Positions 44,601 through 50,600 of a DNA stretch of 64,000 nucleotides are shown one piece after another. Source of the DNA: Escherichia coli (lineage in GTDB: Bacteria; Pseudomonadota; Gammaproteobacteria; Enterobacterales; Enterobacteriaceae). Numbering within the stretch: position 1 is the first letter of the stretch; each line of letters starts with the position of its first letter. The stretch is from NCBI RefSeq assembly GCF_002854065.1, contig NZ_CP024147.1. One strand, 5' to 3'. The position numbers are program-made.

Positions 44601-47600
44601 GCACTCTTCACGGCGCGATCGACATCCTCACGCCCGGCGGCCTGCACGGTCGCCAGCACGTTACCGTTGGCCGGGTTAATGGTCTCGAAGGTGCGACCGC
44701 TGGTGGCGGAGGTATAACCACCATGTATATAAAGCTGCTGTTCTGCCATTCGGGACATCACGTCTCCTCGGTTAATCGGTGGGTAAATGCTGAGTAATAA
44801 AGTGACGGGTCAGCGAGTGTGCGAGAGGTTTATCCAGCGGTTTGCCGCTCAGTGCCGCGCGCAGCCATAATCCGTCAATCAGCGCGGCAAGGCCGTAGCC
44901 CGCTTCCTGTGCCTGGTGGCGCGGCAATTCGCGGCGAAACTCGCTCACCAGATTCGACAGCAAGCGGCGGCTGCTGACCTGCTGTAAACGATAGAGCATC
45001 GGCTGATGCATACTGCTGGCCCAGAACGCCAGCCAGGCTTTCATCGCCGCACTGCTCACCTGCGTTTCATCGAAGTTTCCGCCAACAATCGCCTGTAATC
45101 GCTGCTCTGCACTGCCCTGCGGAAGTGCATGTAATCGATTCAAAACCGCGTCACGCAGCTGACTGGTGATATCGCGCATGGTTGCTTCCAGCAGACCATT
45201 TTTGTCCCTGAAATAGTGGCTGATGATCCCCGTAGAAACGCCTGCACGGCGGGCGATCTGCGCGATCGTTGCATCGTGCATGCCCACTTCATTTATTGCT
45301 TCCAGTGTGGCGTCGATCAGTTGTCTGCGCCGGATCGACTGCATCCCCAATTTGGGCATTTTCGCCACTCCATTCATCAGCGTTGTTTATCTATTAAAGC
45401 GGTTATTGATTGGACGTTCAATATAAAATGTGTCTTAATTGTTACGAATTTGATTTTAAATGGTAACAATAACAGTGGGGATACTGGATGATAGACCTTT
45501 CACACAGCAGGGAAAAGGACAAAATCAATCCGGTGGTGTTTTACACCTCCGCCGGACTGATTTTGTTGTTTTCCCTGACAACGATCCTGTTTCGCGACTT
45601 CTCGGCCCTGTGGATTGGCCGCACGCTGGACTGGGTTTCTAAAACCTTCGGTTGGTACTATCTGCTGGCGGCAACGCTCTATATTGTCTTTGTGGTCTGT
45701 ATCGCTTGTTCGCGTTTTGGTTCGGTGAAGCTCGGGCCAGAACAATCCAAACCGGAATTCAGCCTGCTGAGTTGGGCGGCAATGCTGTTTGCTGCCGGGA
45801 TCGGTATCGATCTGATGTTCTTTTCCGTAGCCGAACCGGTAACGCAGTATATGCAGCCGCCAGAAGGCGCGGGACAGACGATTGAGGCCGCGCGTCAGGC
45901 GATGGTCTGGACGCTGTTTCACTACGGCTTAACCGGCTGGTCGATGTATGCGCTGATGGGCATGGCGCTCGGATACTTTAGCTATCGTTATAATTTGCCG
46001 CTCACCATCCGCTCGGCACTGTACCCGATCTTCGGTAAACGGATTAACGGGCCGATAGGTCACTCAGTGGATATCGCGGCGGTGATCGGCACTATCTTCG
46101 GTATTGCCACTACGCTCGGTATCGGTGTGGTGCAGCTTAACTATGGCTTGAGCGTACTGTTTGATATTCCCGATTCGATGGCGGCAAAAGCGGCACTGAT
46201 CGCCTTGTCGGTGATAATCGCCACTATCTCGGTGACATCCGGTGTCGATAAGGGCATTCGCGTGTTATCGGAGCTTAATGTCGCGCTGGCGTTGGGATTG
46301 ATCCTGTTCGTGTTGTTTATGGGCGACACTTCGTTCCTGCTTAATGCACTGGTGCTGAATGTTGGCGACTATGTGAATCGCTTTATGGGCATGACGCTCA
46401 ACAGTTTTGCCTTCGACCGTCCAGTTGAGTGGATGAATAACTGGACGCTCTTCTTCTGGGCATGGTGGGTGGCATGGTCGCCGTTTGTCGGCTTGTTCCT
46501 GGCGCGTATCTCGCGTGGGCGTACCATTCGCCAGTTCGTGCTGGGCACGTTGATTATTCCGTTTACCTTCACGCTGTTATGGCTCTCGGTGTTCGGCAAT
46601 AGCGCGCTGTATGAAATCATCCACGGCGGCGCGGCATTTGCCGAGGAAGCGATGGTCCATCCGGAGCGCGGCTTCTACAGCCTGCTGGCGCAGTATCCGG
46701 CGTTTACCTTTAGCGCCTCCGTCGCCACCATTACTGGCCTGCTGTTTTATGTGACCTCGGCGGACTCCGGGGCGCTGGTGCTGGGGAATTTCACCTCGCA
46801 GCTTAAAGATATCAACAGCGACGCCCCCGGCTGGCTGCGCGTCTTCTGGTCGGTGGCGATTGGCCTGCTGACGCTCGGCATGCTGATGACCAACGGGATA
46901 TCCGCGCTGCAAAACACCACGGTGATTATGGGGCTGCCGTTCAGCTTTGTGATCTTCTTCGTGATGGCGGGGTTGTATAAATCTCTGAAGGTAGAAGATT
47001 ACCGCCGTGAAAGTGCCAACCGCGATACCGCACCGCGACCGCTGGGGCTTCAGGATCGCCTGAGCTGGAAAAAACGTCTCTCGCGCCTGATGAATTATCC
47101 GGGCACGCGTTACACTAAACAGATGATGGAGACGGTCTGTTACCCGGCAATGGAAGAAGTGGCGCAGGAGTTGCGGTTGCGCGGCGCGTACGTGGAGCTA
47201 AAAAGCCTGCCGCCGGAAGAGGGACAACAGTTGGGGCATCTGGATTTGTTGGTGCATATGGGCGAAGAGCAAAACTTTGTCTATCAGATTTGGCCGCAGC
47301 AATATTCGGTGCCGGGCTTTACCTACCGCGCACGTAGCGGTAAATCGACTTACTACCGGCTGGAAACTTTCCTGTTAGAAGGCAGCCAGGGCAACGACCT
47401 GATGGACTACAGCAAAGAGCAGGTGATCACCGATATTCTTGACCAGTACGAGCGGCACCTTAACTTTATTCATCTCCATCGTGAAGCGCCGGGCCATAGC
47501 GTGATGTTCCCGGACGCGTGATTGTTATTGCATAAAACCGCGCCATGTCTGCATATGGCGCGGTTTCTCTTACCTCTTGATACGTTATATCTGTACGGTT

Positions 47601-50600
47601 AAGCCCTTAGTATCGATTGATGATTGCCAGGCAACAGATAATAAAAAAGAAAAGAACTATTGAAGCCCAAAACCTACATTTGGACTGTTGTGAATGTTCA
47701 ATAAGCTTAGTCTTATTTAATGTAAATATTGGTGCTAATTTGAAATGACGCTTTATTCATGGGGAACGCGTAGCGCAAATCAACTAAAATCAATGTAACC
47801 GTTTGTTGTTTAAGGTTTAATTGTCTGTGTCTGATATTTTATTGATTGTTTTAAATATTGTTTTTATTGTCATTGTTATAATGTTGGCTATCTATTGCTG
47901 AATGGATTCAGTCTTAAAAGGCAGGTTGTTAAGGGATAGGCATAGAGTAATGACGTGTATGCATAACCAACATCTTTACTCATTATGTCATTGAATGTTG
48001 ACGCTATGTGTTTATGAGGTTGAGGTATTTTCAGTTGATCTGGATTGTTAAATTCATATAATGCGCCTTTACTCATGAGTGGGCATCAATACGTAGTGGG
48101 AAATTATAAATATCGAAATAGTCCAACTACTTCTTTATTACCAAAAATGAGTATCTGAATTTTAATATTGCATTCTTGCGTGATTATCTCCTGAGTTTGA
48201 CTTGTGATTACCTTTTTAAGGTATTTAGCGTAACTGTTTTTGAGCGAGCATCAGAGGTAAAGATAATCTTCTTGATAGTGATGTGGGATGTTATACGAAT
48301 GGCATCGCTAATGTTTATGGTTACCCCTTATGTGTGCTCAGGAATCCACAGGTAATCACTCATACTGAACAGCGATAAAAGATAAAAGGTGTGTTCATGA
48401 ATTCATGTGATTTTCGTGTTTTTCTGCAAGAGTTCGGTACAACGGTTCATTTGTCATTGCCTGGTAGCGTATCCGAGAAAGAACGACTGCTACTCAAGCT
48501 GCTGATGCAGGGAATGTCTGTAACAGAAATATCACAGTACAGAAATCGCAGTGCAAAGACAATTTCACATCAAAAGAAACAGCTCTTTGAGAAACTGGGG
48601 ATTCAGAGCGATATTACTTTCTGGCGCGATATTTTCTTTCAGTACAATCCGGAGATCATATCCGCCACGGGTAGTAATAGTCATAGATATATTAATGATA
48701 ATCACTATCACCATATCGTCACGCCTGAAGCCATCAGTCTGGCGTTGGAAAACCATGAATTCAAACCGTGGATCCAACCGGTTTTCTGCGCGCAGACTGG
48801 GGTACTGACGGGCTGTGAAGTGCTTGTCCGCTGGGAACATCCACAAACGGGAATCATCCCGCCGGATCAGTTTATTCCTCTGGCGGAGTCATCCGGTCTT
48901 ATTGTCATAATGACCCGCCAACTGATGAAACAGACTGCGGATATTCTAATGCCGGTAAAACATTTGCTGCCGGATAATTTCCATATTGGTATCAACGTCT
49001 CGGCGGGTTGTTTTTTGGCCGCGGGATTTGAAAAAGAATGCCTGAACCTGGTCAAGAAATTAGGAAACGATAAAATCAAACTGGTTCTCGAGCTAACGGA
49101 ACGTAACCCTATTCCGGTAACGCCAGAAGCCAGAGCGATATTTGACAGCCTTCATCAGCACAACATTACCTTTGCGCTGGATGACTTTGGTACGGGTTAT
49201 GCGACCTATCGTTATCTGCAGGCGTTTCCGGTCGATTTTATTAAGATCGATAAGTCATTTGTGCAAATGGCGAGTGTCGACGAAATATCCGGTCATATTG
49301 TGGACAATATTGTCGAACTGGCTCGTAAGCCTGGTCTGAGTATCGTGGCGGAAGGGGTAGAAACCCAGGAGCAGGCGGATTTAATGATCGGTAAAGGCGT
49401 TCACTTTTTGCAGGGCTATTTGTACTCTCCGCCAGTACCGGGTAATAAATTTATCTCTGAATGGGTAATGAAAGCAGGTGGTTGATGTAAACCGCTATTC
49501 ACAGCGCATCGGGAGGTTGGCAGCGATTAATTCTCCCGATGCAGTAAATCCTGATAGATCCCCGTTAATATGCCATTTGGCGCAAATTGTTTTTTAATCC
49601 ACTGCGTCACCTGGCCGGTGGCAGAGTGCTGGGTCGCCAGTAACATGCGTGAATCCTGGCGCGGGTTATGGATTTGTCGGGTAACCAGCAGGGATTGCGC
49701 CATCGCCTCACGGACCATGTAATCTGGCAAAAAACCAATCCCTTCACCTAAAATCTGGCACTGACATTTGGTGTTGAAATCTGGCACCAGAATTGACTCC
49801 TGCCCGTGCAGCAACCAGCCCACTTTTTTATTAATCGTATGCGCGGTGTCCTCCACCATAATATTAGGGTAGAGACGCAGTTGGCTTTCGGCGATGGGTT
49901 CCGGCACAAAGGCTAACGGGTGATCCGGGGCGATAGCAAAAGCCCAGCGAATCGCGCCAATCTCCGTGTAATCAATGCCGCCACCGTCCAGCAGCGTGTC
50001 GGGTGCGCCGATAGCGATATTTGCCTGATTATTAATAATCGCATCCCAGACGCCGTTATACACTTCGGTGGTGACGGTAATCTGGCAGGTAGGAAACTGC
50101 TTTTTCAGCACCTGTAATAAGCGTGCGGTGTGTTTGGGCGTATAAAGCAACTGATTAATACAAATGCGCACACGCGCTTCTATGCCCTGCGAAATAGTAT
50201 CGATGCTGCGTTTGATGGCGTGAAAATCATTCAGCAGGTCGGTAGCTTTGCGGAAAAAATAACGCCCGGACTCCGTTAACTCAATGCTGCGGGTACTGCG
50301 AGTGAACAGCACCACATCCAGCCCTGTTTCCATTCGCTTGATGGTGTAGCTAATGGCGGAAGTGGTTAAACCCAACTCTTCTGCGGCTTTACTGAAGCTG
50401 CCAAAACGCGCAGCGGTAGTAAATGCCAACAGATTCTCTTCGGTAAAAATTGAGTTCATTAAACCATTCCCGCCATTATCTAATATGAATTTCTCCAGCT
50501 ATGACTGTAGAGGTATCGGTTAAAGATAGATAATCATTTTTGAATAACTTTTAATACCCGTCGCGTTTAGTCGTCGCTTCGCTTAATTTTTGTCCACCAT

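What the first reader, a model, noticed from the sequence alone, without database searches (positions are those of the whole stretch)
47522..48396. Unusually long AT-rich leader upstream of pdeL
Seen: about 875 bp of strongly AT-rich, ORF-poor DNA between the betT terminator and the pdeL start. Established: such curved AT-rich tracts are typical H-NS nucleation sites, and pdeL is reported to be H-NS-silenced and autoregulated. The region could also hide a small RNA or small protein.
Basis: partly seen in the sequence, partly recalled or inferred. Interest (0 to 1): 0.3.

Follow-up and report, generated by a model that had tools for sequence, protein, structure and literature searches.

The report
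Known pdeL control region, with yahV
The long AT-rich gap before pdeL is real, but it is the already-studied H-NS-silenced control region of this E. coli gene (a terminator, regulator binding sites, the tiny gene yahV, a promoter and a 329-base leader), so it is essentially ordinary.

Summary
The stretch 47522-48396 is 875 bp at 34.9% GC, against 48.7% for the window. That puts it in the lowest 0.8% of 875-bp windows and makes it one of the four longest ORF-free gaps.

It is not one long leader. It contains, in order:
- the betT terminator hairpin;
- the distal PdeL box CIB (47697-47720);
- the small ORF yahV (47827-47901);
- the Cra box (47897-47911), with the proximal PdeL-box position next to it;
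- a sigma-70 promoter (TTGATC-16-TATAAT, 48035-48062);
- a 329-nt 5' UTR.

I placed these by aligning the window to E. coli K-12, using published EMSA oligonucleotides and a published Cappable-seq start site. Published K-12 work shows H-NS, FIS, IHF and RNA polymerase on this region in vivo, derepression in an hns mutant, and Cra/PdeL co-activation.

The hidden small protein exists: YahV was detected by tagging in K-12. The allele here differs at 7 of 24 residues, is unannotated in matching RefSeq genomes, shows no purifying selection, and is broken in sister Escherichia lineages.

I found no evidence for an sRNA, a structured leader, an H-NS motif excess or phased A-tracts.

Side finding: about 26% of complete E. 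coli genomes replace this segment with ehaA. The ehaA upstream region keeps the same Cra box, a PdeL-box-like palindrome and the same core promoter.

The parts
47522..48396 (.). The whole betT-pdeL intergenic region: 875 bp, GC 0.349
   Evidence: The segment 47564-48396 is present at >=80% coverage in 3655 of 5426 complete E. coli genomes.
47535..47566 (+). betT intrinsic-terminator hairpin: a 14-bp stem followed by UCUCUU
   Evidence: RNA fold -22.7 kcal/mol, z = -4.78, 0 of 200 shuffles as stable. The simple terminator scan did not call it. The allelic exchange with ehaA-type genomes begins right after it, at 47564.
47697..47720 (.). Distal PdeL box (CIB): TTCAATAAG-N6-CTTATTTAA. In K-12 it is reported to be bound by PdeL and competed for by H-NS
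   Evidence: Placed from K-12 EMSA oligos 4991/4997 and the legend '10 bp up, 33 bp downstream of CIB'. Both half-sites are identical to K-12. The core AATAAG-N6-CTTAT occurs only here in the 64-kb window (shuffle mean 0.05). It is conserved in L014 and L015.
47805..47850 (.). Conserved DNA block covering the yahV ribosome-binding region and its first ~8 codons. Function unknown; it may be a bending-protein site between the two PdeL boxes
   Evidence: Identity of 63-87% to L014/L015 (window pairs 67-87%) in the bins covering 47800-47859, where flanking bins are 40-60%. The yahV reading frame itself is not kept in those lineages. No IHF consensus match.
47827..47901 (+). yahV small ORF: 24 codons from GTG, or 26 from TTG at 47821. 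Product MSDILLIVLNIVFIVIVIMLAIYC. The stop codon overlaps the Cra box
   Evidence: Same position as RefSeq 'protein YahV' in K-12. The K-12 protein was detected by SPA tag (PMC6001520). 7 of 24 residues differ from K-12. Not annotated in XJ34 or in the 16 other sampled window-type genomes. No Pfam or NCBIfam model.
47897..47911 (.). Cra (FruR) box GCTGAATGGATTCAG, centred about -163.5 from the main start site
   Evidence: Matches K-12 oligo 4695, 'CB CDB fwd'. Single match in the window. Fits the Cra consensus pattern. Invariant in K-12, L014, L015 and in the ehaA-type upstream region.
47912..47928 (.). [quoted passage not shown]
   Evidence: The K-12 oligo reads GTCTTAATGAGTGGG here and the window reads GTCTTAAAAGGCAGG. 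This is the most variable sub-segment among 12 E. coli alleles (25.8% variable columns). Not conserved in L014/L015.
47980..48006 (.). Conserved block of unknown function at about -88 to -62
   Evidence: 73-87% identity to L014/L015. No protein-coding explanation: the antisense 62-aa ORF that covers it is broken in L014 and L015.
48035..48062 (+). Main sigma-70 promoter of pdeL: TTGATC-16 nt-TATAAT
   Evidence: Best promoter-like site in the region, 10 of 12 matches. Identical in K-12 and 90-97% identical in L014/L015. It lies within the K-12 'RNAP interaction' fragment 4695-4283. The strongest K-12 Cappable-seq start in the gap, at U00096.2 331267, maps 6 nt after the -10, at window 48068.
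48068..48396 (+). pdeL 5' UTR of 329 nt. Weaker K-12 start sites map to 48154 and 48304. The Shine-Dalgarno AAGG is at 48386-48389
   Evidence: Start sites from PMC4782308 supplement, mapped through alignment A1. Fold z = -1.18, 0 compensatory pairs. No Rfam hit. No conserved upstream ORF.
48397..49485 (+). pdeL: LuxR-type HTH (aa 24-75) plus an EAL domain. Its first ~350 nt belong to the same AT-rich, allele-variable island
   Evidence: RefSeq annotation. NCBIfam domain hits. GC 0.39-0.44 up to about 48700. 81% identity to ehaA-type genomes up to about 48700, then 99-100%. A site inside the gene is flagged H-NS-bound in K-12.

Best explanation
The gap is the composite control region of pdeL, as already characterised in E. 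coli K-12. It is carried here as a different natural allele, about 93% identical to K-12 across the gap.

Proposed mechanism:
1. H-NS coats the roughly 1.2-kb AT-rich island (47564 to about 48700) and keeps the sigma-70 promoter at 48035-48062 nearly silent.
2. Cra binds its box at 47897-47911 and helps PdeL bind next to it.
3. When c-di-GMP is low, PdeL forms a tetramer. The tetramer also engages the distal palindrome at 47697-47720, about 200 bp upstream. This probably loops the DNA, displaces H-NS and recruits RNA polymerase.
4. Transcription starts near 48068 and yields a 329-nt leader.

The betT terminator and the 24-codon ORF yahV, which sits in the presumed loop, account for the rest of the length.

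Shown here: all sequence elements, their positions and their conservation.
Taken from K-12 literature: protein binding, H-NS silencing and the start site.
Inferred: that the same mechanism operates in this allele.
For: Identity and synteny:
- The window matches E. coli betT-pdeL, 100% to strain XJ34 and 94.5% to K-12.

Binding sites and promoter:
- K-12 EMSA oligos for CIB, for CB/CDB and for the RNAP-interaction fragment map collinearly onto the window.
- The CIB half-sites, the Cra box and the -35/-10 are identical to K-12. They also survive in two much more diverged Escherichia lineages whose flanking DNA is only 40-60% identical.
- The K-12 Cappable-seq start at 331267 falls 6 nt after the TATAAT.

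Published K-12 results:
- An hns mutant derepresses pdeL. [quoted passage not shown] Cra and PdeL are co-activators and enhance RNA polymerase binding. A looping/anti-silencing model has been proposed.
- PdeL binds an imperfect palindrome far upstream, with a Cra site further downstream (PMC5052742).
- A site inside yahA is flagged H-NS-bound.

Composition: GC 0.349 against 0.487 for the window.
Against: - No experiment exists for this allele.
- The proximal PdeL box (CDB), reported as strictly required for c-di-GMP control in K-12, differs at 6-7 of about 13 positions here. It is not conserved in L014/L015.
- No enrichment of the H-NS high-affinity motif, and no A-tract phasing beyond base composition. 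H-NS binding is therefore inferred from AT-richness and from K-12 data only.
- A Cra box at -163 is far upstream for a conventional activator.
- Two extra start sites (48154, 48304) and an in-vitro antisense transcript are not explained by the model.
Confidence: 0.85

Rival explanations
1. The gap is long mainly because it houses an independent, functional small membrane-protein gene, yahV. On this view the window allele encodes a working 24-26 aa transmembrane protein with its own role, for example in osmotic stress or motility as proposed in PMC9976479.
For: - The K-12 YahV protein was detected after chromosomal tagging.
- The ORF is open with the same length in all 12 E. coli alleles examined, and all variants stay hydrophobic.
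- AAGG lies 5 nt before the TTG and 11 nt before the GTG.
- A co-occurrence study links yahV with the bet/pdeL neighbourhood.
Against: - Window versus K-12 shows 8 nonsynonymous and 0 synonymous differences.
- 8 of 11 variable sites fall at codon position 2.
- The ORF diverges about as fast as the flanking non-coding DNA.
- The frame is destroyed in Escherichia sp. E1V33 and altered in SCPM-O-B-8794. The DNA of its first ~8 codons is nevertheless conserved there, which points to a DNA element rather than a protein.
- K-12 has no Cappable-seq start directly upstream.
- T-rich DNA yields hydrophobic ORFs in any frame.
Confidence: 0.25
2. The leader, or the gap as a whole, encodes a cis-regulatory RNA or a small RNA that controls pdeL or other genes. 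Candidates include a thermosensor, an attenuator, or an sRNA starting at one of the secondary start sites.
For: - Three + strand start sites map to the leader in K-12.
- In-vitro transcription was seen on both strands of the K-12 gap.
- The last ~95 nt before the ATG diverge about half as fast as pdeL synonymous sites.
- The predicted hairpin pairs the AUG with an upstream CUGAACA.
- pdeL is thermoregulated in strain CFT073.
Against: - No Rfam match, with a best E-value of 2.
- Leader fold z = -1.18, with 13 of 100 shuffles at least as stable.
- 0 compensatory pairs in 57 predicted pairs.
- A 24-nt deletion and a 10-nt insertion are tolerated in sister lineages.
- No 3' ends are reported in this gap in PMC7815308.
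- Thermoregulation is equally expected from H-NS.
Confidence: 0.1
3. The AT-rich segment is a functionless scar. On this view it is decayed DNA left when the ehaA adhesin gene (O-island 15) was lost between betT and pdeL.
For: - 1399 complete E. coli genomes, E. whittamii and E. albertii (decayed) carry ehaA at exactly this place.
- The exchange junctions are sharp, at 47564 and 48386.
- The ehaA upstream region shares the Cra box and the core promoter with the window.
Against: - The leader shows no detectable similarity to the ehaA coding sequence, the ehaA leader or the ehaA-pdeL spacer. Smith-Waterman scores are at or below the null mean.
- The segment carries experimentally used binding sites.
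- It is retained, with conserved islands, in two diverged Escherichia lineages that lack betT upstream.
- Its GC content of 0.35 is unlike that of a decayed coding gene.
Confidence: 0.07

Closest known systems
The pdeL (yahA) promoter region of E. coli K-12, as dissected by Reinders/Jenal and by Yilmaz/Rangarajan/Schnetz
   Same: Same locus and synteny. Same distal PdeL palindrome half-sites, Cra box, -35/-10 and start-site context. Same AT-rich character. yahV is at the same position.
   Different: About 7% sequence divergence across the gap, concentrated in 47562-48114 (56 differences in 553 nt). The proximal PdeL box has diverged. YahV differs at 7 of 24 residues and is unannotated. No experiments have been done on this allele.
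Classical H-NS-silenced loci with extended upstream and downstream AT-rich silencer regions (bgl, proU). This comparison rests on established knowledge; bgl is also described in PMC9678765, listed
   Same: An AT-rich island spans the promoter and the start of the coding region. IS elements are found inserted in the regulatory region in some isolates. An anti-silencing activator is involved.
   Different: Here the anti-silencer is the gene's own product, which senses c-di-GMP, acting together with Cra. I did not test whether the downstream AT-rich part is needed for silencing.
The ehaA (O-island 15) upstream region of EHEC and other E. coli
   Same: Same chromosomal slot. Identical Cra box. A PdeL-box-like palindrome AATAAG-N6-CTTAT. 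A TTGATT-16-TATAAT promoter with Cra-box-to-(-10) spacing of 154 bp, against 158 bp in the window.
   Different: Everything between and around these islands is unalignable. There is no distal box and no yahV. The downstream gene is a 1349-aa autotransporter followed by its own terminator and a 141-bp spacer before pdeL.
Small hydrophobic E. coli proteins found by tagging or ribosome profiling (VanOrsdel 2018 set)
   Same: Under 30 aa, a single predicted transmembrane helix, located in an intergenic region.
   Different: yahV shows no sign of purifying selection and is restricted to E. coli sensu stricto alleles of this segment.

Membership tests
pdeL (yahA) regulatory region as defined in K-12 | Lies between betT and pdeL, directly upstream of a LuxR-HTH/EAL gene | tested here: met
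pdeL (yahA) regulatory region as defined in K-12 | Distal Cra-independent PdeL box (imperfect palindrome) | tested here: met
   The sequence at 47697-47720 has both half-sites identical to K-12. It is unique in the window.
pdeL (yahA) regulatory region as defined in K-12 | Cra box | tested here: met
   The sequence at 47897-47911 is identical to the K-12 oligo and fits the consensus.
pdeL (yahA) regulatory region as defined in K-12 | Cra-dependent PdeL box adjacent to the Cra box | tested here: inconclusive
   The position is present, but 6-7 of about 13 bases differ from K-12. Binding cannot be judged from sequence.
pdeL (yahA) regulatory region as defined in K-12 | Sigma-70 promoter and mapped start site | tested here: met
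   TTGATC-16-TATAAT is identical to K-12. The K-12 Cappable-seq start maps to 48068. The start site itself was not measured in this strain.
H-NS-silenced AT-rich region | Markedly lower GC than the genome over several hundred bp | tested here: met
   GC 0.349 against 0.487; lowest 0.8% of windows.
H-NS-silenced AT-rich region | H-NS occupancy in vivo and derepression in an hns mutant | not testable with these tools
   Reported for K-12 only.
H-NS-silenced AT-rich region | High-affinity nucleation motif or intrinsic curvature (phased A-tracts) | tested here: not met
   The motif TCGATAAATT with <=2 mismatches occurs 2 times, against 2.05 in shuffles. There are 29 A-tracts, against 32.6 in shuffles. 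For the periodicity measure, 35% of shuffles reach the observed value. A full curvature model was not run.
yahV small-protein gene | ORF of the same length at the same position, with its stop overlapping the Cra box | tested here: met
yahV small-protein gene | Protein made in the cell | not testable with these tools
   Shown for the K-12 allele only.
yahV small-protein gene | Evolves under protein-level constraint | tested here: not met
   8 nonsynonymous and 0 synonymous differences. 8 of 11 variable sites at codon position 2. The frame is lost in L014 and changed in L015.
Known RNA family or structured cis-regulatory leader | Rfam match, excess folding stability, or covariation | tested here: not met

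The most novel reading that the evidence does not exclude
The Cra box, PdeL box and sigma-70 promoter form a portable regulatory module that sits in front of two alternative cargoes at this chromosomal slot. In about 67% of E. coli the cargo is a 329-nt leader plus pdeL. In about 26%, and in E. whittamii and E. albertii, it is the adhesin gene ehaA.

If the module works the same way in both, EhaA expression in EHEC would be directly controlled by carbon flux (Cra) and by the c-di-GMP-sensing transcription factor PdeL. The self-activating pdeL switch described in K-12 would then be specific to one allele class.

A second, weaker reading: yahV is not a conserved protein gene but an incidental ORF over a conserved DNA element needed for looping between the two PdeL boxes.
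Probability: 0.3. Interest if true: 0.45.

Novelty: already known. Interest (0 to 1): 0.2.

Why it matters
For the finding as stated, the value lies in closing it. The long AT-rich gap is explained by published biology of pdeL, a bistable c-di-GMP switch that affects motility, biofilm formation and phage N4 sensitivity.

Two small points go beyond the literature I could read.

First, the pdeL control region exists in clearly different natural alleles. The proximal PdeL box and yahV diverge strongly between the K-12-type and the window-type. The quantitative switch measured in K-12 may therefore not transfer to the many clinical lineages that carry the window-type allele.

Second, the same Cra/PdeL/promoter module precedes the adhesin gene ehaA in EHEC-type genomes. 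This gives a directly testable hypothesis for how that adhesin is regulated.

Tried and rejected
- **Rfam scan of 47000-49000 at E <= 10:** only chance-level hits.
- **Leader folding and alignment folding:** z = -1.18 and no compensatory pairs.
- **H-NS motif, A-tract count and AA/TT periodicity against dinucleotide shuffles:** no excess.
- **IHF consensus WATCAANNNNTTR:** no match.
- **Other ORFs as hidden genes:** none is conserved in L014/L015 and the two longest have no Pfam hit. Candidates checked:
  - the antisense 62-aa ORF 47888-48076;
  - the 59-aa ORF 48176-48355;
  - the 31-aa ORF 48283-48378;
  - the 27-aa ORF starting at 48075.
- **Homology of the leader to the ehaA coding sequence, leader or spacer:** none.
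- **Co-evolution of the PdeL DNA-binding domain with its operators across the two allele classes:** rejected. The HTH core (aa 25-83) is nearly identical, and the differences lie in aa 1-24 and 84-104.
- **Papers I could not read:** the three primary papers on the promoter were not held, nor was the Thomason dRNA-seq paper. The three are Reinders 2016 J Bacteriol, Yilmaz 2020 J Bacteriol and Rangarajan & Schnetz 2018. Site positions therefore come from oligonucleotide sequences in the 2021 preprint supplement and from Cappable-seq.
- **Minus-strand start sites:** I could not check the Cappable-seq table for them because the stored file is truncated.

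
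Full report
**What is there**

The window is Escherichia coli. The stretch 47400-48500 is 100% identical to strain XJ34 and 94.5% identical to K-12 derivatives, with betT on the left and pdeL on the right. betT stops at 47521 and the pdeL ATG is at 48397.

The gap is 875 bp at GC 0.349, while the window as a whole is 0.487. Only 0.8% of 875-bp windows are as AT-rich. In a crude map of ORFs of at least 100 aa it is the fourth longest gap, against a median of 153 bp.

Two corrections apply. The betT terminator hairpin (47535-47566, z = -4.8) lies inside the stated interval. The AT-rich island also continues about 300 nt into pdeL.

**Anatomy**

I could not read the primary promoter papers. The supplement of the Reinders et al. 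preprint lists the K-12 oligonucleotides used for EMSA. These map collinearly onto the window through an ungapped alignment.

- **CIB fragment:** 47687-47753. The figure legend says the fragment holds CIB plus 10 bp upstream and 33 bp downstream. That makes CIB the 24-mer TTCAATAAG-N6-CTTATTTAA at 47697-47720. Its core occurs only here in the 64-kb window.
- **Cra-box / proximal PdeL-box oligo:** 47896-47925, with the Cra box GCTGAATGGATTCAG at 47897-47911.
- **RNA polymerase interaction fragment:** its reverse primer ends at 48075. This is just past the best sigma-70 match in the region, TTGATC-16-TATAAT at 48035-48062.

The K-12 Cappable-seq table (PMC4782308 supplement, U00096.2 coordinates) lists three + strand starts in the gap:

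| K-12 coordinate | Score | Window position |
|---|---|---|
| 331267 | 8.9 | 48068 |
| 331353 | 4.8 | 48154 |
| 331503 | 3.6 | 48304 |

The first and strongest start falls 6 nt after the TATAAT. No + strand start is listed between one inside betT (window 47474) and 48068.

The transcribed leader is therefore 329 nt. The remaining 546 bp are terminator, upstream regulatory DNA and a small ORF.

**The small ORF**

RefSeq annotates 'protein YahV' (24 aa) in K-12 at the position equivalent to 47827-47901. VanOrsdel et al. detected it after chromosomal tagging.

The window carries an intact ORF of the same length, or 26 codons from a TTG at 47821. It differs at 7 of 24 residues. It is not annotated in XJ34 or in the 16 other sampled genomes with the window-type allele. 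NCBIfam has no model for it.

Across 12 E. coli alleles the frame stays open and yields five protein variants. The pattern of change is not that of a constrained protein:
- Window versus K-12 shows 8 nonsynonymous and 0 synonymous differences.
- 8 of 11 variable sites fall at codon position 2.
- Diversity in the ORF is similar to that of flanking non-coding DNA.

In two much more diverged Escherichia lineages that carry the same intergenic segment (L014, Escherichia sp. E1V33; L015, SCPM-O-B-8794), the frame is destroyed or changed. The DNA around the ribosome-binding site and the first eight codons is nevertheless conserved there.

Whether this allele makes a functional protein is open.

**Phylogenetic footprints**

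Synonymous divergence of pdeL is 0.17 to L014 and 0.29 to L015. Against that background, most of the upstream half of the gap is only 40-60% identical. Several islands stand out:
- the CIB palindrome;
- 47805-47850;
- the Cra box (invariant);
- 47980-48006;
- the promoter 48026-48075 (90-97%);
- 48094-48150;
- the last ~95 nt of the leader.

The proximal PdeL box is not among them. It is also the most variable sub-segment within E. coli. In L014 and L015 the genes upstream are ykgF/ykgG homologues, not betT. The segment therefore travels with pdeL.

**H-NS**

Published K-12 data support silencing:
- pdeL is described as H-NS-repressed.
- A PhoB site inside yahA (window 48519-48536) is flagged H-NS-bound.

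From the sequence alone I can confirm only the AT-richness. The motif TCGATAAATT, the A-tract count and the 10-11 bp AA/TT periodicity are all at the level of dinucleotide shuffles. 'Curved' is not shown.

**RNA**

- No Rfam family matches.
- The leader is not unusually stable (z = -1.18).
- There are no compensatory changes in 57 predicted pairs.
- Indels of 10 and 24 nt are tolerated in sister lineages.
- No upstream ORF is conserved.
- No 3' ends are listed here in a K-12 3'-end atlas.

Hints that remain: the two weaker start sites, and an in-vitro run-off array study. In that study the antisense strand of the K-12 gap was transcribed preferentially by sigma-S holoenzyme and the sense strand by sigma-70 holoenzyme.

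**Mechanism**

The best-supported account is the published one, transferred to this allele.
1. H-NS silences the promoter across the AT-rich island.
2. Cra bound at -163 helps PdeL bind beside it.
3. At low c-di-GMP, PdeL tetramers also engage the distal palindrome at about -360. This loops the DNA, displaces H-NS and recruits RNA polymerase, giving switch-like positive autoregulation.

The sequence elements and their conservation are shown here. Binding, silencing and the start site are taken from K-12. Operation in this allele is inferred, with the diverged proximal box as the main uncertainty.

**Population context (side finding)**

- 3655 of 5426 complete E. coli genomes carry this segment.
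- 1399 carry instead a 4.6-kb segment with the autotransporter adhesin gene ehaA, known as O-island 15.
- The exchange runs from 47564, just after the betT terminator, to about 48750. It therefore includes the first ~350 nt of pdeL at 81% identity; beyond that the alleles are 99-100% identical.
- The PdeL HTH core is unchanged between the two classes.
- E. whittamii has ehaA at this position, and E. albertii has a decayed ehaA.

The ehaA upstream region is unalignable with the window except for three things:
- the identical Cra box;
- a palindrome with the CIB core, AATAAG-N6-CTTAT (0 of 200 shuffles);
- the core promoter TTGATT-16-TATAAT (Smith-Waterman 21 against a null of 7.3 +/- 1.3).

The spacing from Cra box to -10 is almost the same in both, at 154 bp against 158 bp. 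The pdeL leader shows no similarity to ehaA or its flanks, so it is not a recognisable deletion scar. No paper in the held library connects ehaA with Cra or PdeL.

**Verdict**

The feature is real and non-random, but it is already explained. Its novelty class is 'already known'.

The residual interest is modest. It rests on allele differences in the proximal PdeL box and in yahV, and on the regulatory module shared with ehaA.

Noticed in passing
window 47564-48750; L004 5165-9935; L058: This slot holds two old allele classes. About 67% of complete E. coli genomes have the 822-bp AT-rich segment. About 26% have a 4.6-kb segment with ehaA (O-island 15) plus a divergent first ~350 nt of pdeL (81% identity), after which the genomes are 99-100% identical. 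ehaA-type alleles also occur in E. whittamii and, decayed, in E. albertii. K-12-type alleles also occur in two diverged Escherichia lineages.
   Followed up: partly
L004 5291-5305, 5329-5345, 5426-5453 (ehaA upstream region): The ehaA upstream region keeps the identical Cra box, a PdeL-box-like palindrome AATAAG-N6-CTTAT and a TTGATT-16-TATAAT promoter. Their spacing is nearly the same as upstream of pdeL in the window. This suggests that ehaA is under Cra/PdeL control. I found no paper making this link in the held library.
   Followed up: partly
window 47950-47957 and 48304-48309 (L059, L060, L061): IS elements interrupt the region in some isolates. IS1 sits between the Cra/PdeL boxes and the promoter in THO-015, with the same right junction in TUM13064. 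An IS3-family element sits in the leader of CREC7837, exactly at the third Cappable-seq start site. About 160 genomes have only partial coverage of the segment.
   Followed up: partly
window 48115-48671: Between the window and K-12, this stretch (distal leader plus the first 275 nt of pdeL) has only 4 differences and no synonymous change. The adjacent 47562-48114 has 56 differences, and the rest of pdeL has pS 0.09. This could be a recombination tract or a constraint; I did not resolve which.
   Followed up: partly
window 48519-48536: The sequence TGTAACAGAAATATCACA inside pdeL is identical to the intragenic PhoB binding site reported for K-12 yahA. yahA expression was about 2-fold lower in a phoB mutant (PMC10294691).
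   Followed up: no
L014 1-2176; L015 1-2216: In Escherichia sp. E1V33 and strain SCPM-O-B-8794, the genes directly upstream of the AT-rich segment are ykgF/ykgG-like (LUD domain). No match to betT was found in the roughly 2.2 kb upstream. The segment is therefore linked to pdeL rather than to betT.
   Followed up: partly
window 16200-17900: This is the only part of the window more AT-rich than the pdeL region, with a minimum GC of 0.319 in an 875-bp window starting at 16551. I did not examine it.
   Followed up: no
L018 (Stappia sp. BW2) and L023 (Collinsella MAG): Two non-enterobacterial assemblies contain short contigs 83-99% identical to E. coli pdeL/ehaA. They are most likely E. coli contamination of those assemblies.
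   Followed up: no
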